Source: a virus (Duplodnaviria; Heunggongvirae; Uroviricota; Caudoviricetes). Taken from it: 16,591 nucleotides of DNA. A program made the position numbers and the translations under genes. The DNA lies in IMG/VR virus record IMGVR_UViG_2718217897_000003. One strand, written 5' to 3'. The notes under the pieces were generated by a model that was not told where the DNA came from, ran no database searches, and was given only the letters and a program-made list of their open reading frames with translations. This document shows, piece after piece, positions 5,206 through 16,591 of this stretch. The number at the start of each line of letters is the position of its first letter. Position 1 is the stretch's first letter.

Positions 5206-5477
5206 GTATTCGTATTGAAATTGGCGAACGTTATGTCGTTACCAGTGACAGCTTTCAGTTTATTCTCCACGAGAAAAAGAGAGCGGAAAGCGGTAAAAAC
5301 GCCGGTCAGGAATGGCTGGCGGTGGTTGGTTATTACCCGAAATTAAGCCAGCTCGTTTCCGGCCTGATGCATCACGATATTCTTACCGGAAGCGCAAAGT
5401 CTTTTGCTGATTTAAACGCGCAGGTTGAGCAACTCAGCAAGCGTTGTTCAGAGGCTTTTGGCTCATATGGCCGTTAA
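5202..5477 (+). CDS. Hypothetical early protein, P2 orf83 position (91 aa)
   Basis: ATGA overlap with the orf82 stop; its 3' end overlaps the A start by 11 nt. Confidence 0.7.
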   Translation: MSIRIEIGERYVVTSDSFQFILHEKKRAESGKNAGQEWLAVVGYYPKLSQLVSGLMHHDILTGSAKSFADLNAQVEQLSKRCSEAFGSYGR

Positions 5478-7749
5478 AGCCTCCGGGCGTTTTGTCCCTC
5501 CGTCAGCATTTGCCGCAGGCACCGGTAAGACGTTTACCGGTGCTTATGCATGGAACGCGCCACGCGAGGCCGTCGGGCGCGAAAGACCCCTTACACGTGA
5601 CGAGATGCGTCAGGTGCAAGGTGTTTTATCCACGATTAACCGCCTGCCTTACTTTTTGCGCTCGCTGTTTACTTCACACTATGACTACATCCGGCGCAAT
5701 AAAAGCCCGGTGCACGGGTTTTATTTCCTCACATCCACTTTTCAGCGTCGTTTATGGCCGCGCATTGAGCGTGTGAATCAGCGCCATGAAATGAACACCG
5801 ACGCGTCGTTGCTGTTTCTGGCAGAGCGTGACCACTATGCGCGCCTGCCGGGAATGAATGACAAGGAGCTGAAAAAGTTTGCCGCCCGTATCTCATCGCA
5901 GCTTTTCATGATGTATGAGGAACTCAGCGATGCCTGGGTGGATGCACATGGCGAAAAAGAATCGCTGTTTACGGATGAGGCGCAGGCTCACCTCTATGGT
6001 CATGTTGCTGGCGCTGCACGTGCTTTCAATATTTCCCCGCTTTACTGGAAAAAATACCGTAAAGGACAGATGACCACGAGGCAGGCATATTCTGCCATTG
6101 CCCGTCTGTTTAACGATGAGTGGTGGACTCATCAGCTCAAAGGCCAGCGTATGCGCTGGCATGAGGCGTTACTGATTGCTGTCGGGGAGGTCAATAAAGA
6201 CCGTTCTCCTTATGCCAGTAAACATGCCATTCGTGATGTGCGTGCACGCCGCCAGGCAAATCTGGAATTTCTTAAATCGTGTGATCTCGAAAACAGGGAA
6301 ACCGGCGAGCGCATCGACCTTATCAGTAAGGTGATGGGCAGTATTTCTAATCCTGAAATTCGCCGGATGGAGCTGATGAACACCATTGCCGGTATTGAGC
6401 GTTACGCCGCAGCAGAGGGTGATGTGGGGATGTTTATCACGCTGACCGCGCCGTCAAAGTATCACCCGACACGTCAGGTTGGAAAAGGCGAAAGTAAAAC
6501 CGTCCAGCTAAATCACGGCTGGAACGATGAGGCATTTAATCCAAAGGATGCGCAGCGTTATCTCTGCCGTATCTGGAGCCTGATGCGCACGGCATTCAAG
6601 GATAATGATTTACAGGTCTACGGTTTGCGTGTCGTCGAGCCACATCACGACGGAACGCCGCACTGGCATATGATGCTTTTTTGTAATCCGCGCCAGCGTA
6701 ACCAGATTATCGAAATCATGCGTCGCTATGCGCTCAAAGAGGATGGCGACGAAAGAGGAGCCGCGCGAAACCGTTTTCAGGCAAAACACCTTAATCGGGG
6801 CGGTGCTGCGGGGTATATCGCGAAATACATCTCAAAAAACATCGACGGCTATGCACTGGATGGTCAGCTCGATAACGATACCGGCAGACCTCTGAAAGAT
6901 ACTGCCGCGGCTGTTACTGCATGGGCGTCAACGTGGCGCATCCCGCAATTTAAAACGGTTGGTCTGCCGACAATGGGGGCTTACCGTGAACTACGCAAAT
7001 TGCCTCGCGGCGTCAGCATTGCTGATGAGTTTGACGAACGCGTCGAGGCTGCACGCGCTGCCGCAGACAGTGGCGATTTTGCGTTGTATATCAGTGCGCA
7101 GGGTGGGGCAAATGTTCCGCGCGATTGCCAGACTGTCAGAGTCGCCCGTAGCCCGTCGGATGAAGTTAACGAGTACGAGGAAGAAGTCGAGAGAGTGGTC
7201 GGCATTTACGCGCCGCATCTCGGCGCGCGTCATATTCATATCACCAGAACGACGGACTGGCGCATTGTGCCGAAAGTTCCGGTCGTGGAGCCTTTGACTT
7301 TAAAAAGCGGCATCGCCGCGCCTCGGAGTCCTGTCAATAACTGTGGAAAGCTCACCGGTGGTGATACTTCGTTATCGGCTCCCACACCGACTGAGCATGC
7401 TGCAGCGGTGTTAAATTTTATAGATGAAGGGATTCTAAGTTGGACCGAGCCAGGCATTATGAAGGTACTTAGAGACTTATTGAGTAATGAACTGAAATGC
7501 AGTAATCGTTCACAGCAGAGCTTTACTCCTTTCAATGGTCGAAGCTACTTTCCTGCCCCATCCGCCCGGTTGACAAGGCAGGAGAGAAAGACTATCCCGA
7601 AAATTAAGGTTCTTCTTGCACAAAGTGACATTCAGGCTAGTTATTGGGAGCTTGAAGCTCTCGCTCGCGGAGCTGTTTTGGATTTTGGGCATAAGCGTTT
7701 TAAATTTGATACCGATATCGACTTTTTTGACAGACAGCGTGAGTGGTAG
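5467..7749 (+). CDS. A: Replication initiation protein A (rolling-circle initiator, 760 aa)
   Basis: Protein starts MAVKASGRFVPPSAFAAGTGKTFTGAYAWNAPREAVGRERPLTRDEMRQ at the ATG at 5467 and carries an HxH-like motif (TPHWHMMLF) and a tyrosine-rich GYIAKYISKN region typical of gpA-family initiators. The ORF-track start at 5425 is an extension. The last 110 codons or so are AT-richer than the rest. Confidence 0.92.
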   Translation: MAVKASGRFVPPSAFAAGTGKTFTGAYAWNAPREAVGRERPLTRDEMRQVQGVLSTINRLPYFLRSLFTSHYDYIRRNKSPVHGFYFLTSTFQRRLWPRIERVNQRHEMNTDASLLFLAERDHYARLPGMNDKELKKFAARISSQLFMMYEELSDAWVDAHGEKESLFTDEAQAHLYGHVAGAARAFNISPLYWKKYRKGQMTTRQAYSAIARLFNDEWWTHQLKGQRMRWHEALLIAVGEVNKDRSPYASKHAIRDVRARRQANLEFLKSCDLENRETGERIDLISKVMGSISNPEIRRMELMNTIAGIERYAAAEGDVGMFITLTAPSKYHPTRQVGKGESKTVQLNHGWNDEAFNPKDAQRYLCRIWSLMRTAFKDNDLQVYGLRVVEPHHDGTPHWHMMLFCNPRQRNQIIEIMRRYALKEDGDERGAARNRFQAKHLNRGGAAGYIAKYISKNIDGYALDGQLDNDTGRPLKDTAAAVTAWASTWRIPQFKTVGLPTMGAYRELRKLPRGVSIADEFDERVEAARAAADSGDFALYISAQGGANVPRDCQTVRVARSPSDEVNEYEEEVERVVGIYAPHLGARHIHITRTTDWRIVPKVPVVEPLTLKSGIAAPRSPVNNCGKLTGGDTSLSAPTPTEHAAAVLNFIDEGILSWTEPGIMKVLRDLLSNELKCSNRSQQSFTPFNGRSYFPAPSARLTRQERKTIPKIKVLLAQSDIQASYWELEALARGAVLDFGHKRFKFDTDIDFFDRQREW

Positions 7750-7784
7750 TTGAAAAAACGGTTGAACGGGGTAACAATATGTTA

Positions 7785-7814
7785 TTGTTGAGGAATTGTT
7801 TGTTATGGTTTAAT
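7785..7814 (+). promoter_or_regulatory. Candidate sigma70-like promoter for the cargo operon (-35 TTGTTG 7785-7790, -10 TTTAAT 7809-7814), overlapping a palindrome
   Basis: Hexamers with 18-bp spacing about 25 bp upstream of the 7838 ATG; palindrome AACAATA-tgt-TATTGTT at 7773-7789. Pattern match only. Confidence 0.3.
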
Positions 7815-7837
7815 TTTTATACACGGCAGAAAAGCAT

Positions 7838-9061
7838 ATGAGCATGGTTGAATGGATAAGCCACGAGAAAAAAGATAGCCTGATACTATTTGTACATGGA
7901 TTAAATGGTGGTTTGGAAACATGGAACTTTAATAAAGAAATTTCATTTCCAAAACTATTAGCAGAAGATGAAGATATTAGCAACGTATTTGATATTGCAT
8001 GTTTCAATTATTTTACTAAATTCACACAAACGTATGCTAAAACGTCAGGATTCTTGGCTCGTATTTTCTTTAAGAAAAATAAGTTAGAGAGAAATTTACC
8101 AACTGATGAAATAGCTGAGTTATTGTATACTGAGATTAGAGTAACACTAAGTGATTACTCTCGAATTATAATAATCGCCCATAGTATGGGGGGGTTAATA
8201 TCAAAAAATCTAATTCTAAAAAAAGTTGAGCATGAGGAACAATCTAATATAATTGGATTCATTTCGTTAGCAGTCCCTCACTTTGGTGCTAAATTAGCGA
8301 ATATAACTTCAATGGTATCTTCAAATGCTCAGTTAGTAGATCTTGGATTGTTAAGTGAAGCGACTGATACATTGAATAGGCGCTGGATAAATTGTAGCAA
8401 AAAACTTCCTATCACTAGATATGTTTATGGATCTCATGACACTATAGTCGATAAAAAAAGCGCATTACCGATGGATAGTGAACGACATAACTCAATTGCA
8501 GTTAATGAAGGGCATAGCTCAATTTGCAAGCCCGAAAATAGCTCGTCTACAGTGTTTGTTGCGGTAAAGCAATTTATTCAGCAGATAAATTTAGAAGCAC
8601 CCAAGAAGATTTGCGTTGAGCGTTTTTCTGATGATAAACAATATGATAATGAGTATTTCGTCTTAAAAATGATTGTCGCAGATATACATCAGGATATCGC
8701 TCTGCATGCAAAGGAATATTATTATAATGCTGAGCTTGCGAGAAATATTTTTACGAGTGATTACGATAGAAAACAACTTGGTCATTTGTATTCTAAAATA
8801 AGGGAGATTTACCAGGAAGAGTATGAGCAATACATTGCAAATTCAATTTCCCCAGATAAATTTATTGCTGCTGTTCATAGACGAATAACCCAGGAGGATA
8901 AGTCGTCGTTAGATTCTCTTATAAAAAGTTTGGAAACGATACATAAGAAAGGAATGTTGCATCAACTGGCTAACAAAAATGACAGGGATATTGTCTGGTC
9001 ATCTGAAACCAGCGTAGAAACTTTGGAGCAATTACGGCGAGGTAATCATGAAGAAAAATAA
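7838..9061 (+). CDS. Cargo protein 1: lipase-like alpha/beta serine hydrolase with C-terminal helical domain (407 aa), candidate defense effector
   Basis: AT-rich ORF. Oxyanion-hole-like HGLNGG (res 20-25), nucleophile elbow AHSMGG (Ser116, the pentapeptide of Bacillus lipase A), candidate acid Asp201 (YGSHDTIVD) and His226 (NEGHSSI), in the canonical order. The C-terminal 150 residues or so are helical and K/E-rich. The stop overlaps the next gene by 14 nt. Confidence 0.75.
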   Translation: MSMVEWISHEKKDSLILFVHGLNGGLETWNFNKEISFPKLLAEDEDISNVFDIACFNYFTKFTQTYAKTSGFLARIFFKKNKLERNLPTDEIAELLYTEIRVTLSDYSRIIIIAHSMGGLISKNLILKKVEHEEQSNIIGFISLAVPHFGAKLANITSMVSSNAQLVDLGLLSEATDTLNRRWINCSKKLPITRYVYGSHDTIVDKKSALPMDSERHNSIAVNEGHSSICKPENSSSTVFVAVKQFIQQINLEAPKKICVERFSDDKQYDNEYFVLKMIVADIHQDIALHAKEYYYNAELARNIFTSDYDRKQLGHLYSKIREIYQEEYEQYIANSISPDKFIAAVHRRITQEDKSSLDSLIKSLETIHKKGMLHQLANKNDRDIVWSSETSVETLEQLRRGNHEEK

Positions 9062-9560
9062 CTTGCCGTATATACCTCTTGATGAAGAGTATAGTTTGAA
9101 TTTTGCTATGCTTGCCATTGCTATATCTATATTATCTCATAGCAAAAAAGGAGTGTTGTCATTAGATATTAATAAAATACAAATTTTTATGTATCTGATA
9201 AAAAATCCATCAAAAATTGATTGTGCTCTTACAGTTTCGGGGAAAAAGCCTGCTTGTGTCGAGTCCCAGTTAACTTATACAATAAAGAGTTTTTCATCAA
9301 ATGTAGATATCTTATTCGACAATTCCAAAGTGAAATATCTTATAAAAATTATGTCATTGCGGGGATTGCTCTCAGCTGAGAAAAAAAATAATGAGAGTGT
9401 TAAATTATTTTTATCTGAAAAAGGTAAGGAATTTGCTAGCTCATTGACTGATGGATATTTTAAAGAAATAAAACGACTAGCCGAAGCATTGTTACCGCTA
9501 CAAGCATTGCCTACCTCTAAGTTAAACTCTGTTATAAACAAAGTCTTCAAGGAGAAATGA
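9048..9560 (+). CDS. Cargo protein 2: small 170-aa protein of unknown function, possible adaptor or kleisin-like middle component
   Basis: ATG at 9048 lies inside the 3' end of gene 1, and ATGA overlaps gene 3 at 9557-9560, indicating translational coupling in one operon. AT-rich; no motif recognised by eye. Confidence 0.7.
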   Translation: MKKNNLPYIPLDEEYSLNFAMLAIAISILSHSKKGVLSLDINKIQIFMYLIKNPSKIDCALTVSGKKPACVESQLTYTIKSFSSNVDILFDNSKVKYLIKIMSLRGLLSAEKKNNESVKLFLSEKGKEFASSLTDGYFKEIKRLAEALLPLQALPTSKLNSVINKVFKEK

Positions 9561-11527
9561 TGAAATCATATCTCAATATCAATAGTTTGATTCTTGTTGG
9601 CGTTCGTAAAAACTACGTCACTACTTTTTATAAAGGTCTCAATGTTATCTACGGAGACTCTGACACAGGTAAGTCAAGTATTCTGGAGTTTATTAATTAT
9701 CTTTTAGGTGCTAGTTCTATAGATTTAGCAGATGAAATAAAAACATCAGTAAACTATGCTGCTCTTGAAGTAGTGATCAATGATACTGTATTCACAATCG
9801 TAAGAGATATCTATGATCATAAAAAATCAATAGAAGTTTATCGTTGTAAGTTTGATGATTTACATAAACACTTTCCGAAAAAATACGCCCCTAATTATAG
9901 CCCCTTATCAAATGTTGATGGCGTTTTTTCGGAGTTTTTACTTGATAGTCTTAATTTTCCAAAAATTGAAATTAAGGTGTCTCCTTCTAAAGCACATTCA
10001 CAGATGCGCAGGTTAAGCTTTAGAAATATATATAAATTTGTTTATGTAAGTCAGGATGATATTGGTAGTAAATCATTCTTACGATTGGAGGATTGGTCCC
10101 GTTACGCATTTACGAAAGAAGTTTTTAAATACATGTTCAATGTGTTGGATGAAAGCATCGCCAGACTCCAAGGTGAAATATCTGCAAAAAGTAGTTTAGT
10201 AACGGAACTAAATAAGAAGTATCAGATAATATCTGAATTTCTTCGCGATACAGACTATGAAACAATTGAATCAATTGATGATGAGATTAATAGGATAGAT
10301 CTTATTTTAGAAGAACTTGTTGCAGGTTTGTCTGCTCTCGATAAAAATATGAAAGCGGATTCCATGCAGTATACAGAATTGAAAGATGCCCACAATTTTA
10401 TTTCGCTTAAATACAAGGAGTGCATATTAAATATTAGCACGCTTGAGGATAAGATTGATAAATATTCGCGGTTAAAAAATGACTATGATAATGATATTGA
10501 AAAACTCAAAGCGATTAAAACAGCAAATTCTCGCATTGGTGTATTGGATAAGGAAGTATTTTCCTGTCCGATCTGTGATAGCCACATTAAAATAGATGAT
10601 TCCGATTTTCCATTTGAAATTTCATCAGAAAAAGATCTTAATGAAGAGTTGAATTCACTTAGTCGACGTAGACGAAATATTAATGACATGATCTCAGAAA
10701 TGTCATTTAAATTAAAAAAAGAATCTGGTTATAAAAAAGAATTAGATGAACAACTTGACGAGTTGAGAGAGTTAATTGACGAAGAAAGCCAGTCAATGAT
10801 TACACCATTCTTGACTCAGAGAGATTTTTATATTAAAGAGATATCAAAAAACGAGAAGGTTAGGGAGCAGTTAGTAAAAGATTTGAAGGTTAGAAACCAG
10901 CAAGAGGAACTGCTTGAAAAGCATCAGGTACTGATAAAAGATATTGAAACATTAACTGAACGCTTGGATGCGTTAAAGAAAAACGCACCTAGTATGGAAG
11001 GCATTTTACAAGGTTTAGGTGATAGATTTAGTCAGTATTTGAAGGGTATTAATATCAAAAACAGAACGGGGATAAAAATCTCTGAAAGATATTACACCCC
11101 TGTTATAAGAGGAAAGGAATATTTTAAAATAACGTCCGGAGGTTTGAGAACTATTTCTTCTATTGGGTATCTTTTGTCTATTCTTGATTATGCAATAGAC
11201 CATAATGTTAACCATCCTTTACTTTTGATATTTGATACGGTTGGTAAATATTTAGGGAAACAGACCAAGGAAAAATACTCAAAAGAAACTCTTGCAGTCG
11301 AGGATGACCTTGAGGGGATGTCAGACCCGATGAAGTATCAAAATATTTATGAGCAACTATTGAATACAGTTCAAAAAGCAGAAAGAAAAAATGTTCCGTG
11401 CCAGATTATATTAGTTGATAATGATTTGCCTAATTCGTTTTCTACTGGTGAACTTTCGAATATTATCGCTCATTATAGCTCGGTTGGTGAGGATGGTTTG
11501 CCTTTAGGTTTAATTGATGACCTTTAA
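9557..11527 (+). CDS. Cargo protein 3: SMC/Rad50/SbcC-like ABC ATPase with coiled coil and CxxC hook (656 aa)
   Basis: N-terminal Walker A GDSDTGKSS (K39), Q-loop-like VSQDD (Q166), a charged heptad-rich segment of about 350 residues with a single CPIC (C337/C340) near its middle, signature-like TSGG (526-529) and Walker B-like LLLIFD (555-560). Confidence 0.8.
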   Translation: MMKSYLNINSLILVGVRKNYVTTFYKGLNVIYGDSDTGKSSILEFINYLLGASSIDLADEIKTSVNYAALEVVINDTVFTIVRDIYDHKKSIEVYRCKFDDLHKHFPKKYAPNYSPLSNVDGVFSEFLLDSLNFPKIEIKVSPSKAHSQMRRLSFRNIYKFVYVSQDDIGSKSFLRLEDWSRYAFTKEVFKYMFNVLDESIARLQGEISAKSSLVTELNKKYQIISEFLRDTDYETIESIDDEINRIDLILEELVAGLSALDKNMKADSMQYTELKDAHNFISLKYKECILNISTLEDKIDKYSRLKNDYDNDIEKLKAIKTANSRIGVLDKEVFSCPICDSHIKIDDSDFPFEISSEKDLNEELNSLSRRRRNINDMISEMSFKLKKESGYKKELDEQLDELRELIDEESQSMITPFLTQRDFYIKEISKNEKVREQLVKDLKVRNQQEELLEKHQVLIKDIETLTERLDALKKNAPSMEGILQGLGDRFSQYLKGINIKNRTGIKISERYYTPVIRGKEYFKITSGGLRTISSIGYLLSILDYAIDHNVNHPLLLIFDTVGKYLGKQTKEKYSKETLAVEDDLEGMSDPMKYQNIYEQLLNTVQKAERKNVPCQIILVDNDLPNSFSTGELSNIIAHYSSVGEDGLPLGLIDDL

Positions 11528-11655
11528 TACTATACATGCATTTTTTTGAATTAGATTGCATGTGGATAATGAGTCTATTTAGTGAAGGGAAGGTTTTGTG
11601 TGACGTGACTTTCGATAAAATTCAACCGCATTAAAACCGCCCCATGAAGCGGGCG

Positions 11656-11674
11656 GGCGAGGCGGGGAAAGCAC
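11656..11674. other. cos site (19-nt cohesive-end sequence GGCGAGGCGGGGAAAGCAC) with flanking G/T-rich repeats
   Basis: The 19-mer matches the P2 cohesive end as I recall it, lying between the end of the rightward operon and the 3' end of Q, where cos sits in a P2 prophage. G/T-rich reiterated motifs follow at about 11700-11815. Confidence 0.65.
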
Positions 11675-11815
11675 TGCGCGCTGGCGGTGGTGCTGATTTT
11701 ATTTTTTAGCGTCTCAGCGCGTCGTGATGGCGTTTAGATTGTGCGCCGGGGCGTTGGTGTGTCTGCGGGGTGTTTTGTGCGGTGGTGAGCGTGTGAGGGC
11801 GTGATGACGGGGTGT

Positions 11816-11842: not shown

Positions 11843-12814
11843 TCAGCCGTTGTCAGTGTCCAGTGAGTAGTTTTTAAAGCGGATGACCTCCTGACCGAGC
11901 CAGCCGTTTATCTCACGGATCCTGTCCTGTAACGGGATAAGCTCATTGCGGACAAAGACCTTTGCCACTTTCTCAATATCACCCAGCGACCCGACGTTCT
12001 CCGGCTTGCCGCCCATCAACTGAAAGGGGATGCGGTGCGCGTCCAGCAGGTCTGCGGCACTGGCTTTTTTGATATTAAAAAAATCGTCCTTCGTCGCCAC
12101 TTCACTGAGCGGGATAATTTTAATGCCGTCGGCTTTTCCCTGTGGGGCATAGAGAAACAGGTTTTTAAAGTTGTTGCGGCCTTTCGACTTCACCATGTTT
12201 TCGCGAAGCATTTCGATATCGTTGCGATCCTGCACGGCATCAGTGACGTACATGATGTATCCGGCATGTGCGCCGTTTTCGTAATACTTGCGGCGGAACA
12301 GCGTGGCCGACTCATTCAGCCAGGCAGAGTTAAGGGCGCTGAGATATTCCGGCAGGCCGTACAGCTCCTGATTAATATCGGGCTCCAGCAGGTGAAACAC
12401 GGAACCGGGCGCGAAGGCTGTCGGTTCGTTGAAGGACGGCACCCACCAGTAAACATCCTCCTCCACGCCACGGCGGGTATATTTTGCCGGTGAGGTTTCC
12501 AGTCTGATGACCTTACCGGTGGTGCTGTAACGCTTTTCCAGAAACGCATTACCGAACACCAGAAAATCCAGCACAAAGCGGCTGAAATCCTGCTGGGAAA
12601 GCCACGGGTGCGGGATAAACGTTGAAGCCAGAATATTACGTTTGACGTAAATCGGTGAGCTGTGATGCACGGCAGCACGCAGACTTTTTGCCAGACCGGT
12701 AAAGCTGACCGGTGGCTCATACCATCTGCCGTTACTGATGCATTCGACGTAATCCAGAATGTCACGGCGGTCGAGTACCGGCACTGGCTCACCATGCTGA
12801 AAAATCAGCTTCAT
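11843..12814 (-). CDS. Q: Portal protein Q (323 aa as encoded here; 5' end abuts a deletion junction, possibly N-terminally truncated)
   Basis: Minus-strand ORF with host-like GC content in the expected place and orientation next to cos. From memory P2 Q is about 344 aa, so about 20 codons may be missing. Sequence directly upstream of its ATG is lysB-derived rather than gene P. Confidence 0.8.
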   Translation of the reverse strand: MKLIFQHGEPVPVLDRRDILDYVECISNGRWYEPPVSFTGLAKSLRAAVHHSSPIYVKRNILASTFIPHPWLSQQDFSRFVLDFLVFGNAFLEKRYSTTGKVIRLETSPAKYTRRGVEEDVYWWVPSFNEPTAFAPGSVFHLLEPDINQELYGLPEYLSALNSAWLNESATLFRRKYYENGAHAGYIMYVTDAVQDRNDIEMLRENMVKSKGRNNFKNLFLYAPQGKADGIKIIPLSEVATKDDFFNIKKASAADLLDAHRIPFQLMGGKPENVGSLGDIEKVAKVFVRNELIPLQDRIREINGWLGQEVIRFKNYSLDTDNG

Positions 12815-13075
12815 GTTGCGCTCACCAGGGCAGACAAAAACGAGCTGGCGCAGGTGGCACTGCGTCAGGAACTGGAAAACGCCGCGAAGCGTGAAGCTCA
12901 GCGCGAGAAAACCATCACGAGATTACTCAATGAAAACGAAGATTTCCGCCGCTGGTATGGCGCTGACCTGCCTGATGCTGTGCGCCGGTTGCACCAGCGC
13001 CCCGCCTGCACCGACGCCAGTGATTGTCCACAACGCCTGCCCGAAAGTGAGTCTTTGCCCGATGCCGGGCAGTGA
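12815..13075 (+). pseudogene. lysB: lysB remnant (Rz-like spanin, 3' portion only)
   Basis: The frame ending at 13075 encodes ...ALTRADKNELAQVALRQELENAAKREAQREKTITRLLNENEDFRRWYGADLPDAVRRLHQRPACTDASDCPQRLPESESLPDAGQ, but upstream of about 12815 the same frame is antisense to Q. There is no lysB start or N-terminal transmembrane region. The 5' boundary is approximate (plus or minus 30 nt). Confidence 0.6.
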
Positions 13076-13220
13076 CCCGCAGACGAACGGCGATTTAAGT
13101 GCCGATATCCGGCAGCTTGAGAACGCGCTGGCACGCTGTGCCAGCCAGGTAAAAATGATTAAACACTGTCAGGACGAAAACGATGCTCAAACCCGACAGC
13201 CTGCGCAGGGCGCTGACTGA
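12930..13220 (+). CDS. lysC: LysC (Rz1-like outer-membrane lipoprotein spanin, 96 aa), embedded in the lysB frame region
   Basis: MKTKISAAGMALTCLMLCAGCTS has a signal peptide and lipobox Cys; the rest is proline-rich. Embedded out of frame in lysB as in P2. Likely non-functional without full LysB. Confidence 0.7.
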   Translation: MKTKISAAGMALTCLMLCAGCTSAPPAPTPVIVHNACPKVSLCPMPGSDPQTNGDLSADIRQLENALARCASQVKMIKHCQDENDAQTRQPAQGAD

Positions 13221-13650
13221 TGCCGTCACGGTGCTGAAAACTAACCCCGATATGCTTCGGATATTCGTGGATAACGGGAGTATTGCCTCCACACTGGCGA
13301 CGTCGCTGTCATTCGAAAAGCGTTACACGCTCAATGTCATTGTGACCGATTTTACCGGTGATTTTGACCTGCTCATCGTGCCGGTGCTGGCGTGGCTGCG
13401 GGAAAATCAGCCCGACATCATGACCACCGACGAAGGCCAGAAAAAAGGCTTCACGTTTTATGCAGACATCAACAATGACAGCAGCTTTGATATCAGTATC
13501 AGCCTGATGCTGACCGAACGCACGCTGGTCAGTGAGGTGGGCGGCGCGCTGCATGTGAAGAATATCCCGGAACCCCCGCCGCCGGAGCCGGTCACCCGCC
13601 CGATGGAGCTTTATATCAATGGCGAACTGGTGAGTAAGTGGGATGAATGA
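13183..13650 (+). CDS. R: Tail completion protein R (155 aa)
   Basis: MLKPDSLRRALTDAVTVLKTNPDMLRIFVDNGS... matches P2 gpR in sequence as I recall it, and in size and position. Confidence 0.9.
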   Translation: MLKPDSLRRALTDAVTVLKTNPDMLRIFVDNGSIASTLATSLSFEKRYTLNVIVTDFTGDFDLLIVPVLAWLRENQPDIMTTDEGQKKGFTFYADINNDSSFDISISLMLTERTLVSEVGGALHVKNIPEPPPPEPVTRPMELYINGELVSKWDE

Positions 13651-14095
13651 GTTTAAGCGTTTTGAAGACCGGCTGACCGGGCTGATTGAATCGCTGTCAC
13701 CGTCAGGGCGTCGGCGACTGAGCGCCGAACTGGCGAAACGTCTGCGTCAGAGTCAGCAGCGTCGGGTGATGGCACAGAAAGCCCCGGACGGCACCCCCTA
13801 CGCGCCACGTCAGCAGCAGAGCGCCAGAAAAAAGACCGGTCGCGTTAAGCGAAAAATGTTTGCGAAACTTATTACCAGTCGTTTTTTGCATATCCGCGCC
13901 AGCCCGGAACAGGCATCAATGGAATTTTACGGCGGGAAGTCGCCGAAAATCGCCAGTGTGCATCAGTTCGGTCTGTCGGAAGAAACCCGGAAAGACGGTA
14001 AGAAAATTGATTATCCGGCGCGTCCTCTGCTCGGCTTTACCGGTGAGGATGTGCAGATGATTGAAGAGATTATCCTGGCTCACCTTGAGCGTTAG
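13643..14095 (+). CDS. S: Tail completion protein S (150 aa)
   Basis: MNEFKRFEDRLTGLIESLSPSGRRRLSAELAKRLRQSQQRRV... matches P2 gpS as I recall it; start overlaps the R stop. Confidence 0.9.
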   Translation: MNEFKRFEDRLTGLIESLSPSGRRRLSAELAKRLRQSQQRRVMAQKAPDGTPYAPRQQQSARKKTGRVKRKMFAKLITSRFLHIRASPEQASMEFYGGKSPKIASVHQFGLSEETRKDGKKIDYPARPLLGFTGEDVQMIEEIILAHLER

Positions 14096-14166: not shown

Positions 14167-14952
14167 TTATGAGTGATTTTTATTTGATGCTTTGTATTCT
14201 ACAACCTTCTTATTGGCGTAAAGGAATTTTGTATATGACAGGAATATAACCAGACCTGAAATGAAATAGATGAGGGATATTATTAATAATGCTTTTTTTT
14301 GGCTGTTATTATCTTTAATTTCCTGACTTAACCATTCCGAGTCCTCCTCGTTTAGCTGTAAGAGCTTATTGCAGGCGATCTCAGGAAGTGTGTCTTTTAT
14401 AAATATGTTTCGTAGCCTCTTGCAATCGGCAAGGCTATAAGTTTTATTGAATTCAACTGTTTTATTGTTGAAGGATAAAAGAACTTTGTCACTATAAACA
14501 TAGTACATCATATTTTTATATGGTATGCCTATGGCATCTCTTACTATAGCGGATTGTTTGTTGTGTATATAACATGCGAAGAGAATATAAATAATGCTGG
14601 ACAGAATTACAATTATTGTTTTAATTATGTGTGGTGGTTTTGTTATGTCACCCCAGAAGCGAGTAAGAAAAAAATACGATGTTTTTAGTTTTCCATCAAT
14701 CAGCCCCTGCTGTATCATTCTCACATCTTCGATGCCTGATACATTGATTCCGTTAATTATTTTAAATAGTTGAATGTCGCGCCATTTTTTGTCGAGCATT
14801 TTTAACTTTCTGTCTGAATACTCAAAATTGAAATGATGTGCAATAAACCTCATAAGATTACTTTTACCAAAGGTAATAAATGTTAATGCTATTAATAAAA
14901 ATAGATACAAAGAGATAAACCACCACGCATTAGTCACATTATCACTGAACAT
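14167..14952 (-). CDS. AT-rich cargo gene: 261-aa integral membrane protein (about 3 predicted TM helices), unknown function, in the S-V slot (P2 orf30 position)
   Basis: ATG complement at 14950-14952 with GAGGAG 8 nt upstream on the minus strand. Hydrophobic segments WWFISLYLFLLIALTFITF, IIVILSSIIYILFACYI and ALLIISLIYFISGLVIFLSY. Opposite strand to the flanking tail genes. Confidence 0.8.
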   Translation of the reverse strand: MFSDNVTNAWWFISLYLFLLIALTFITFGKSNLMRFIAHHFNFEYSDRKLKMLDKKWRDIQLFKIINGINVSGIEDVRMIQQGLIDGKLKTSYFFLTRFWGDITKPPHIIKTIIVILSSIIYILFACYIHNKQSAIVRDAIGIPYKNMMYYVYSDKVLLSFNNKTVEFNKTYSLADCKRLRNIFIKDTLPEIACNKLLQLNEEDSEWLSQEIKDNNSQKKALLIISLIYFISGLVIFLSYTKFLYANKKVVEYKASNKNHS

Positions 14953-16124: not shown

Positions 16125-16591
16125 ACACCAAAGACCCGAAACCGCAAAAGCAGAAGGTAAAACTGAAACGCAAAAAGAAAGAGAAACACCTGCGCGCACT
16201 GGAGCACCCGAACGCGAAACCGGTCAGGCAGAAGAAAGCGCCTAAAGTACCGGAAGCGCGTGAAGGTGAATACATGGCCGGTGAGGCTGACAACGTTTTT
16301 GCCCTGACCACGGTATATGCCACGAAAGCGCAGGCCATGCGCGCCGCTCAGGCGAAGTGGGATAAGCTGCAACGGGGCGTTGCGGAGTTCTCCATCAGTC
16401 TGGCTACCGGTCGTGCTGATATTTACACGGAAACACCGGTTAAAGTGTCAGGCTTTAAGCGCGTCATAGACGAGCAGGACTGGACAATCACTAAGGTGAC
16501 ACATTTTCTGAATAATAGCGGCTTCACGACGTCCCTGGAGCTTGAGGTCAGGCTTTCTGATGTGGAGTACGAAACAGAAGATGATGAGTGA
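16125..16591 (+). pseudogene. D: Tail protein D, 3' fragment (about 155 codons, no start), analogous to the K-12 yegZ remnant
   Basis: An open frame from 16082 to the TGA at 16589-16591 encodes ...KAQAMRAAQAKWDKLQRGVAEFSISLATGRADIYTETPVKVSGFKRVIDEQDWTITKVTHFLNNSGFTTSLELEVRLSDVEYETEDDE with no plausible start or RBS. It is the last gene before where ogr and attR would lie. Assignment to D rests on position and partial recollection. Confidence 0.6.

What the first reader, a model, noticed from the sequence alone, without database searches (positions are those of the whole stretch)
9557..11527. SMC-like ATPase with a CxxC hook and a Walker B apparently lacking the catalytic glutamate
A single CPIC motif (C337/C340) sits near the middle of the predicted coiled coil, as expected for a Rad50/SbcC-type zinc hook that dimerises the arms. 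The Walker B-like segment reads LLLIFD-T instead of the usual hhhhD-E. If my motif assignment is right, ATP hydrolysis may be slow or use another residue, which would suit a sensor or clamp rather than a motor.
Basis: partly seen in the sequence, partly recalled or inferred. Interest (0 to 1): 0.55.

Follow-up and report, generated by a model that had tools for sequence, protein, structure and literature searches.

The report
Lamassu LmuB sensor ATPase, prophage-borne
The gene is LmuB, the Rad50-like sensor ATPase of a three-gene Lamassu anti-phage system carried by a defective P2-like prophage of E. coli B; its zinc hook and glutamate-less Walker B motif are real, but both are published hallmarks of this family, so the finding is correct and ordinary.

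Summary
ORF 9557-11527 (656 aa) has Walker A GDSDTGKS (K39), one CPIC (C337/C340) and the Walker B segment LLLIFD560-T561, with no hhhhD-E anywhere. The CPIC sits in the loop between two long predicted helices (199-326 and 358-476; midpoint 337.5). C337, P338, C340, D560 and T561 are invariant in 113 homologues.

The protein is LmuB (PADLOC E=1e-233). It is the last gene of a lmuA (lipase-like hydrolase plus ABC-3C CTD8), lmuC (MC4), lmuB operon. The operon lies in an AT-rich island between the replication gene A and the portal gene Q of a P2-like prophage, and is 100% identical to E. coli B.

A profile alignment to the solved Salmonella LmuB (9hqu) pairs CPIC with CPMC, S527 with the signature S536, and D560-T561 with the D-Q Walker B. 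Published work already describes short Lamassu Walker B as hhhhD[Q/S/T/E], zero to two CxxC hooks, slow ATP hydrolysis, and a validated E. coli lipase-type Lamassu with a zinc hook.

Verdict: already known; low interest. The ATPase rate of a D-T LmuB has not been measured in anything I could read.

The parts
7838..9061 (+). lmuA: effector, 407 aa. N-terminal lipase-like alpha/beta-hydrolase domain plus C-terminal ABC-3C CTD8 docking domain.
   Evidence: PADLOC LmuA PDLC03851 E=1.3e-108. Pfam DUF676 2.8e-9, PGAP1 3.1e-7, Abhydrolase_1, LCAT and CTD8 PF20284 9.2e-36 at residues 265-389.
8177..8191 (+). LmuA nucleophile elbow A-H-S116-M-G (GxSxG-type).
   Evidence: Read directly from the sequence. 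It lies inside the DUF676/PGAP1/LCAT matches. The catalytic role is inferred.
9048..9560 (+). lmuC: middle component, 170 aa. Overlaps lmuA by 14 nt and lmuB by 1-4 nt.
   Evidence: PADLOC LmuC PDLC03869 E=2.6e-52. Pfam MC4 PF20290 E=4.5e-27.
9557..11527 (+). lmuB: Rad50/SMC-like coiled-coil ABC ATPase, 656 aa (655 aa if it starts at 9560).
   Evidence: PADLOC LmuB PDLC03862 E=1.2e-233 over the full length. The top Foldseek hits in the PDB are all Lamassu LmuB chains: 9uxh_F 4.3e-20, 9hqx_B, 9hqu_A, 9nyg_B.
9653..9676 (+). Walker A / P-loop G33-D-S-D-T-G-K39-S40.
   Evidence: G33, G38 and K39 are 100% conserved in 111 sequences (this LmuB plus 110 representatives). Aligns to GASRTGKS of 9hqu and to the Rad50 and RecF P-loops.
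10052..10054 (+). Candidate Q-loop glutamine Q166.
   Evidence: Invariant in the 53-sequence alignment. Q in 74 of 111 sequences (this LmuB plus 110 representatives). The assignment as Q-loop is inferred.
10151..10534 (+). Ascending coiled-coil arm, residues 199-326, with breaks near 231-236 and 265-269.
   Evidence: AlphaFold2 secondary structure. Heptad periodicity and only 2 Pro+Gly in the arm.
10565..10576 (+). Zinc-hook motif C337-P-I-C340 in the apex loop (residues 327-357).
   Evidence: CPxC is invariant in 113 homologues and C337/C340 are 100% conserved in the 111 aligned sequences. Aligns to the CPMC hook of 9hqu.
10628..10984 (+). Descending coiled-coil arm, residues 358-476.
   Evidence: AlphaFold2 predicts one continuous helix. 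It has the strongest 3.5-residue periodicity of the four segments tested.
11135..11143 (+). Signature (C-loop) motif S527-G-G.
   Evidence: Invariant. Aligns to S536 of the Salmonella LmuB, the residue mutated to block head engagement.
11222..11239 (+). Deviant Walker B L-L-I-F-D560-T561, followed by the invariant V-G-K-Y-L-G-K.
   Evidence: Beta-strand 556-560 in the model. D-T is invariant in 113 homologues. Aligns to ILD-Q of 9hqu. A weak alignment also pairs it with LD-E of SbcC (E=0.24).
11402..11425 (+). Q616-I-I-L-V-D621-N622-D623: the strand and loop where an ABC H-loop histidine would be expected; no His is present.
   Evidence: Strand 616-621 in the model. V-D-N-D is invariant in 113 homologues. 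D621 is 86% and N622 88% conserved in the 111 aligned sequences. The H-loop assignment is inferred from the order of elements in the fold, not from a residue-level structural alignment.

Best explanation
The ORF is LmuB, the SMC/Rad50-like sensor subunit of a short (type II) Lamassu anti-phage system with a lipase-like effector. The operon lmuA-lmuC-lmuB (7838-11527) is AT-rich cargo in the variable slot between the replication gene A and the portal gene Q of a defective P2-like prophage of the E. coli B type.

Likely mechanism, by homology to solved Lamassu complexes:
1. Two LmuB chains pair along their roughly 125-residue coiled-coil arms and through the single CPIC motif at the apex. Four cysteines from two chains would bind one zinc, as in Rad50 and SbcC.
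2. LmuC and the CTD8 domain of LmuA dock on the hook-proximal coiled coils and hold a monomeric LmuA inactive.
3. ATP binding (K39) and head engagement (S527), together with DNA ends or replication intermediates of an invader, release LmuA.
4. Released LmuA oligomerises and becomes active. Here the active enzyme is a Ser-hydrolase/lipase, which presumably attacks membrane lipids and kills the infected cell (abortive infection).
5. The Walker B reads D-T, not D-E, so hydrolysis should be slow. That suits a one-shot sensor or switch rather than a motor.

What is shown here: family membership, operon anatomy, motif placement, conservation, the predicted fold and the genomic context. What is inferred from published homologues: stoichiometry, zinc binding, DNA-end sensing, release and oligomerisation of LmuA, the lipid target, and the slow ATPase.
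For: Family membership: PADLOC LmuA 1.3e-108, LmuC 2.6e-52 and LmuB 1.2e-233. Pfam CTD8, MC4 and DUF676/PGAP1. RefSeq annotates the identical locus as 'ABC-three component system protein / middle component 4 / AAA family ATPase'.

Structure: AlphaFold2 mean pLDDT 85.2, with a head / two-arm / apex-loop layout. The best PDB fold matches are LmuB chains of three independent Lamassu structure sets, followed by Rad50, SMC and JetC.

Motif register: the profile alignment to 9hqu_A (E=1e-11) pairs CPIC with CPMC, S527 with S536 and D-T with D-Q. The signature-to-Walker-B spacing is 33 residues, as in SbcC.

Family-wide pattern: in 110 full-length representatives from a search of 1.84 billion proteins, the Walker B Asp is invariant. 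The next residue is T 54, S 47, G 6, N 2, A 1 (one gapped row, P0244, unscored), and never E or Q, counted over the 111 aligned rows including this LmuB. The CPxC is conserved, with one or two copies.

Literature:
- PMC12663957: short Lamassu Walker B is hhhhD[Q/S/T/E]; 0/1/2 CxxC copies; an E. coli lipase Lamassu with a Zn hook protects against lambda-vir and needs the LmuB Walker A lysine and the lipase histidine.
- bioRxiv 10.1101/2025.03.14.643221: about 1 ATP/min with DNA; zinc hook, ATP binding and head engagement are needed for defence; lipase effectors carry CTD8 or CTD9.
- PMC10586767: a 2023 review already states both features.

Context: integrase, C, cox and gene A lie upstream and the portal downstream. 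GC drops from about 52% to 32-34% across the island.
Against: - No experiment on this exact locus was found. The validated 'Ec-Lipase' system uses different residue numbers (LmuB K42, LmuA H215), and I could not show that it is the same protein.
- Identity to the solved LmuB structures is only about 15%.
- The solved and assayed homologues carry D-Q (short type) or D-D (long type). I found no ATPase measurement for a D-T LmuB.
- Zinc was not resolved even in the published maps.
- The prophage is defective, and in REL606 lmuC is broken by a 2-bp insertion, so the system is not functional in every carrier.
- The lipid target of the effector has not been demonstrated.
Confidence: 0.93

Rival explanations
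1. It is a DNA-repair SbcC/Rad50 orthologue, as many database entries for its homologues are named, working with an Mre11/SbcD nuclease.
For: Sources name several homologues 'exonuclease SbcC' or 'Rad50'. It has a CxxC hook and a coiled-coil ABC fold. There are weak NCBIfam and PDB matches to the Rad50 N-lobe. Lamassu is proposed to descend from SbcCD (PMC12663957).
Against: No SbcD/Mre11 gene is adjacent; the partners are LmuA and LmuC. The genuine sbcCD operon lies elsewhere in the same genome. The protein is 656 aa against 1048 aa for SbcC. It has no D-E Walker B. The C-lobe profile finds no HMMER match to SbcC, and the whole-profile hhalign aligns only the P-loop region. All Rad50 and SbcC NCBIfam scores are far below their cut-offs.
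Confidence: 0.02
2. It is a decaying, non-functional ATPase in a dead prophage, and the missing glutamate is a degenerative mutation.
For: The prophage lacks its capsid and terminase genes. REL606 carries a frameshifted lmuC.
Against: D-T is invariant in 113 homologues from many genera, and T or S dominates this position in 110 divergent representatives. All three ORFs are intact in the window. Ninety-five complete E. coli genomes carry at least 80% of the 7700-11700 query, which spans the operon and parts of its flanks. The same deviation is a family trait in functional, tested systems.
Confidence: 0.03
3. It belongs to another coiled-coil or ABC defence ATPase family: Wadjet JetC, Gabija GajA, PARIS AriA or an OLD-type ATPase.
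For: Marginal PADLOC hits to JetC (E=0.0016) and GajA (E=0.0074). Distant fold matches to JetC and AriA.
Against: These scores are more than 200 orders of magnitude weaker than the LmuB match. No JetA/B/D, GajB or AriB partners are present. It has no hinge domain and no TOPRIM domain.
Confidence: 0.01

Closest known systems
Short (type II) Lamassu with lipase effector ('Lamassu Ec-Lipase', clade H of PMC12663957; Lamassu-Lipase subtype; ABC-3C system with CTD8/MC4)
   Same: Same three-gene A-C-B operon. Lipase-like LmuA with an ABC-3C C-terminal domain, a small LmuC, and an LmuB of about 650 aa with a single CxxC hook and an hhhhD[Q/S/T/E] Walker B. The host species is E. coli.
   Different: The residue numbering of the tested system (LmuB K42, LmuA H215) does not fit this protein (K38/39; candidate catalytic His at 226). 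It is probably a different allele or sub-clade, and identity could not be established because the supplementary tables are not held.
Salmonella enterica LmuACB (PDB 9hqu/9hqx) and Vibrio cholerae DdmABC/LmuACB (9ny5/9nyg, 9uxh)
   Same: LmuB fold, signature serine, Walker B lacking Glu, LmuC middle component and operon order; a CPxC hook in the Salmonella LmuB. These are the best sequence-profile and fold matches.
   Different: They share about 15% identity. Their Walker B is D-Q rather than D-T. Their effector is a Cap4 nuclease, not a lipase. The V. cholerae LmuB has no hook.
Rad50 / SbcC (Mre11-Rad50, SbcCD)
   Same: Coiled-coil ABC ATPase with a CxxC zinc hook at the apex. The signature-to-Walker-B spacing is 33 residues in both. 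The sensing logic is DNA-end recognition, which for this LmuB is inferred.
   Different: Rad50 and SbcC have a canonical D-E Walker B and an H-loop His, arms several times longer, and a stably bound Mre11/SbcD nuclease. They act in repair rather than abortive defence.

Membership tests
Lamassu (short / type II; ABC-3C) | LmuB: an SMC/Rad50-like ABC ATPase with an intact Walker A and a coiled-coil insertion. | tested here: met
   PADLOC LmuB E=1.2e-233 over the full length. GDSDTGKS present. AlphaFold2 predicts a head plus two long helices. The top Foldseek hits are LmuB chains.
Lamassu (short / type II; ABC-3C) | LmuA effector with an N-terminal enzymatic domain and an ABC-3C C-terminal docking domain, encoded next to lmuB. 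| tested here: met
   PADLOC LmuA E=1.3e-108. Pfam CTD8 E=9.2e-36 plus DUF676/PGAP1 hydrolase matches.
Lamassu (short / type II; ABC-3C) | Small LmuC middle component between lmuA and lmuB, on the same strand and tightly coupled. | tested here: met
   PADLOC LmuC E=2.6e-52. Pfam MC4 E=4.5e-27. Start and stop codons overlap at 9048-9061 and 9557-9560.
Lamassu (short / type II; ABC-3C) | Deviant Walker B hhhhD[Q/S/T/E], as described for short Lamassu (PMC12663957). | tested here: met
   LLIFD560-T561. Aligned to D-Q of 9hqu. T or S in 101 of the 111 aligned sequences (this LmuB plus 110 representatives).
Lamassu (short / type II; ABC-3C) | Anti-phage or anti-plasmid abortive-infection activity that depends on ATP binding by LmuB and on LmuA catalysis. 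| not testable with these tools
   Shown for homologous systems only.
Rad50/SbcC-type zinc hook | A CxxC at the apex of an antiparallel coiled coil. | tested here: met
   CPIC 337-340 lies in the loop between helices 199-326 and 358-476, whose midpoint is 337.5. It is invariant.
Rad50/SbcC-type zinc hook | Zinc-dependent dimerisation, with four Cys from two chains. | not testable with these tools
   Only single chains can be modelled here. Zinc was not resolved in the published LmuB maps either.
Rad50 / SbcC | Canonical Walker B hhhhD-E. | tested here: not met
   No hhhhDE in the protein. SbcC has FLD985-E986.
Rad50 / SbcC | An adjacent Mre11/SbcD phosphoesterase partner. | tested here: not met
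   The neighbours are LmuA, LmuC, the P2 gene A and the portal gene. sbcCD is a separate locus.
SMC proper (Smc, MukB, JetC) | A hinge dimerisation domain at the coiled-coil apex, with kleisin and KITE partners. | tested here: not met
   The apex is a loop of about 30 residues containing CPIC. There is no hinge Pfam hit, and SMC_N matches only the P-loop region, below its cut-off. JetC scores E=0.0016 only.

The most novel reading that the evidence does not exclude
In this D-T (and D-S) LmuB clade, the catalytic glutamate is missing and no histidine is seen at the inferred H-loop place (invariant V-D-N-D). A G-K-Y-L-G-K segment and a conserved acidic pair (E586, D590) follow the Walker B. The clade might therefore be a pure ATP-binding switch that never hydrolyses ATP. 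Alternatively it might use a relocated carboxylate (E586, D621 or D623) as the catalytic base. Either would be a different active-site solution from the D-Q LmuBs studied so far.
Probability: 0.2. Interest if true: 0.35.

Novelty: already known. Interest (0 to 1): 0.12.

Why it matters
For discovery it matters little. The locus is a textbook Lamassu system that standard defence-finder models recognise at E=1e-233, and both flagged motifs are published family traits.

It has some practical interest. The operon sits intact in a prophage remnant of the E. coli B type. In the laboratory strains listed (B, ATCC 11303 and drug-resistant B derivatives), the queried stretch 7700-11700, which contains it, is 100% identical. 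REL606 carries a frameshifted lmuC. B-lineage strains might therefore differ in a latent abortive-infection system.

The D-T variant would also be a convenient test case for whether LmuB needs ATP hydrolysis at all. The authors of the Salmonella structure state that question is open.

Tried and rejected
- **Direct profile placement against a canonical D-E protein.** hhalign of the 53-sequence LmuB profile against E. coli SbcC aligned only the P-loop region. A HMMER profile of the C-lobe found nothing in SbcC, even with filters off. hhalign of the C-lobe alone gave E=0.24, which is not significant, although its register pairs SGG with SGG and FD-T with LD-E. The placement therefore rests on the significant alignment to the solved LmuB, the equal 33-residue spacing and the predicted beta-strand.
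- **Is this the published 'Ec-Lipase' system?** No supplementary text is held. No homologue in my set has the Walker A lysine at position 42. Unresolved.
- **A 2026 preprint on H-NS silencing of immunity loci.** A full-text search shows that it mentions Lamassu, P2-like and BL21, but it could not be opened. I used it only as a lead.
- **Promoter and terminator scans around the operon.** These gave fewer promoter-like sites than shuffled sequence and nothing convincing.
- **SbcC/Rad50, SMC/JetC, GajA and AriA membership.** Considered and rejected.
- **Distances in the active site.** Model coordinates are not exposed by the tools, so the H-loop and alternative-base ideas remain inference.
Full report
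**Observation.** The window has an uninterrupted ORF at 9557-11527 on the + strand, 656 aa.

A motif scan finds:
- Walker A, G33-DSDTGK39-S40.
- A single CxxC, C337-P-I-C340. The protein has five cysteines in all.
- A signature-like motif, T-S527-G-G.
- A hydrophobic strand ending in D560, followed by T561 (LLLIFD-T).

The only other hhhhD is IILVD621-N. No hhhhD-E exists anywhere. Shuffling the protein yields a CxxC in 3.05% of trials, so the motif alone is weak evidence. Position and conservation make the case.

AlphaFold2, run with a 53-sequence alignment (mean pLDDT 85.2), predicts an N-terminal head lobe. It also predicts an ascending helix at 199-326, a loop of about 30 residues, a descending helix at 358-476, and a C-terminal head lobe. 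The CPIC lies in that loop, at the exact midpoint (337.5) of the helical region. Both arms show the 3.5-residue hydrophobic periodicity of coiled coils, and the heads do not.

In 113 full-length homologues at 44-88% identity, C337, P338, C340, D560, T561, G563 and K564 never vary.

One correction concerns numbering. Two ATGs are adjacent (9557 and 9560). RefSeq and most homologues start at the second, so database numbering is one lower.

**What it is.** All three ORFs of the AT-rich block 7838-11527 hit Lamassu models in PADLOC:
- LmuA, E=1.3e-108.
- LmuC, E=2.6e-52.
- LmuB, E=1.2e-233 over the full length.

Pfam shows that LmuA is a DUF676/PGAP1/LCAT-type alpha/beta hydrolase with the nucleophile elbow AHS116MG. 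It is joined to 'C-terminal domain 8 of ABC-three component systems' (E=9.2e-36). LmuC is 'Middle Component 4' (E=4.5e-27). The genes overlap (9048-9061 and 9557-9560), which suggests one operon with translational coupling.

The fold search puts LmuB chains from independent Lamassu cryo-EM studies first: 9uxh_F, 9hqx_B, 9hqu_A, 9nyg_B and 9ux7_A. Rad50, SMC and JetC follow.

**Context.**
- The stretch 7700-11700, which contains the operon, is 100% identical to E. coli B strains, and 95 complete E. coli genomes carry at least 80% of it.
- It sits between the P2-type replication endonuclease gene A (5425-7749) and the portal gene Q (11843-12814, minus strand).
- Upstream are the integrase, C repressor and cox genes. 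Downstream are the spanin, tail-completion and baseplate genes. No capsid or terminase genes are present, so the prophage is defective.
- GC falls from about 52% to 32-34% across the operon.
- From my own knowledge, the A-to-Q slot is where phage P2 itself carries tin and old. Defence hotspots in P2-like phages are described in PMC13586616.

A profile of 53 homologues matches the solved Salmonella LmuB (9hqu_A) at E=1e-11 over residues 4-571. Counting residues in the printed alignment gives these pairs:
- CPIC with its CPMC.
- S527 with S536.
- D560-T561 with D570-Q571.

S536 is the signature-motif serine, and its S536R mutation abolishes head engagement and defence. The authors describe this LmuB's Walker B as a natural E-to-Q variant (bioRxiv 10.1101/2025.03.14.643221).

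Direct alignment to a canonical D-E protein was less informative. The full profile aligned only the P-loop of E. coli SbcC. A C-lobe HMM found no match. A C-lobe hhalign was not significant (E=0.24), although its register paired SGG with SGG and FD-T with LD-E. Independently, the signature Ser to Walker B Asp spacing is 33 residues in both this protein and SbcC (S952 to D985). D560 also ends a predicted beta-strand.

Neither is met.

**Family-wide view.** A profile search of 1.84 billion representative proteins found 3243 relatives at E<=1e-3. I aligned this LmuB with the 110 full-length proteins among the top 150, giving 111 rows:
- The Walker B Asp is invariant.
- The next residue is T 54, S 47, G 6, N 2 and A 1 (one gapped row, P0244, unscored). 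It is never E or Q.
- Both cysteines at the hook position are 100% conserved, and the proline 99%.
- 45 sequences have one CxxC and 66 have a second one 13-24 residues downstream.

This independently reproduces the published description.

**Comparison with what is known.** PMC12663957 (PNAS 2025) states that short Lamassu LmuB has the Walker B hhhhD[Q/S/T/E] and long Lamassu has hhhhDD. It says the CxxC zinc hook occurs in zero, one or two copies. It infers slow hydrolysis from the divergent motif. It also reports that an E. coli 'Ec-Lipase' Lamassu with a Zn hook protects against lambda-vir, and that this requires the LmuB Walker A lysine and the lipase histidine.

The Salmonella study measured about 1 ATP/min with DNA. 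It found the zinc hook, ATP binding and head engagement necessary for defence. It notes that lipase effectors carry CTD8 or CTD9.

A third study reports ATP hydrolysis 'at a moderate rate' despite the 'naturally deviant Walker B', and a canonical hook at the distal end of the coiled coil. A 2023 review already mentions both features (PMC10586767).

**Mechanism (inferred by homology).** An LmuB dimer is joined at the hook and along folded coiled coils. With LmuC, it sequesters one LmuA through the LmuA C-terminal domain. ATP-dependent head engagement and binding of DNA ends or replication intermediates release LmuA. LmuA then oligomerises into its active form. Here the active form is a lipase-like hydrolase, which presumably damages membranes and aborts the infection. 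None of these steps was tested on this locus.

**What remains open.** I found no ATPase measurement or structure for a D-T or D-S LmuB.

In this clade the place where an ABC H-loop histidine is expected reads V-D-N-D and is invariant. Between the Walker B and that strand lies a conserved G-K-Y-L-G-K segment and an acidic pair: position 586 is E or D in 82% of the 111 aligned sequences, and D590 is 86% conserved.

Whether the clade hydrolyses ATP at all, or uses a relocated carboxylate, cannot be decided here. This is the only part with any novelty potential, and it is modest.

**Verdict.** The object is a recognisable, already described kind of system (Lamassu-lipase, ABC-3C CTD8/MC4) in a well-known strain background. 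Novelty: already known. Interest: low.

Noticed in passing
window 9048-9560 (about 9195); L001 9349-9863: In REL606 lmuC carries a 2-bp TG insertion (TATCTGTGATAA against TATCTGATAA) plus one C-to-T change. RefSeq therefore splits it into a 50-aa 'hypothetical protein' and a truncated MC4 protein. The window and the other E. coli B records listed have the intact 170-aa gene. The Lamassu system may therefore be inactive in REL606 but not in other B strains.
   Followed up: yes
window 9557-9562: There are two adjacent ATG start codons. The AGGAG Shine-Dalgarno sequence lies 2-3 nt before the first and 5-6 nt before the second.
   Followed up: yes
window 12602-13933 and 16125-16591: A 1332-bp stretch is absent from REL606. 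It holds the rest of the portal ORF, an Rz-like spanin and tail-completion genes. The last ~470 bases also do not align to the REL606 locus. The best E. coli B records cover the window at 92% in three pieces. The window therefore comes from a prophage variant with different deletions. Capsid and terminase genes are missing in all of them.
   Followed up: partly
window 14167-14952 (-): A second AT-rich ORF (about 35% GC) of 261 aa lies on the opposite strand between the tail-completion and baseplate genes. It matches phrog_2407 (unknown function) at E=1.8e-143, with no PADLOC hit and no Pfam hit above cut-off. It is a possible further cargo or defence gene.
   Followed up: partly
window 11402-11425 and 11240-11330 (LmuB residues 562-591 and 616-623): LmuB has no histidine at the expected H-loop place (invariant V-D-N-D). 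An invariant G-K-Y-L-G-K segment follows the Walker B. A conserved acidic pair (E586, D590) precedes helix 591-610, and D590 may be a displaced D-loop aspartate. I did not find these features discussed in the Lamassu papers I could read.
   Followed up: partly
homologues P0121-P0268: Two-thirds of the divergent LmuB representatives carry a second CxxC 13-24 residues after the conserved CPxC. That would allow a four-cysteine site within one chain. This protein's clade has only one CxxC, as in an inter-chain Rad50-type hook. D-S mostly goes with two copies and D-T mostly with one.
   Followed up: partly
homologue names: Sources name many close homologues 'exonuclease SbcC' or 'double-stranded DNA repair protein Rad50'. 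Given the LmuA/LmuC context and the family scores, these look like mis-annotations of LmuB.
   Followed up: no
window 7838-11527 (32-34% GC island): A 2026 bioRxiv preprint, 'H-NS silences antiviral immunity through 3D chromatin compaction', contains the terms Lamassu, P2-like and BL21 by full-text search. It could not be opened. The AT-rich operon may be H-NS-silenced in B strains.
   Followed up: no
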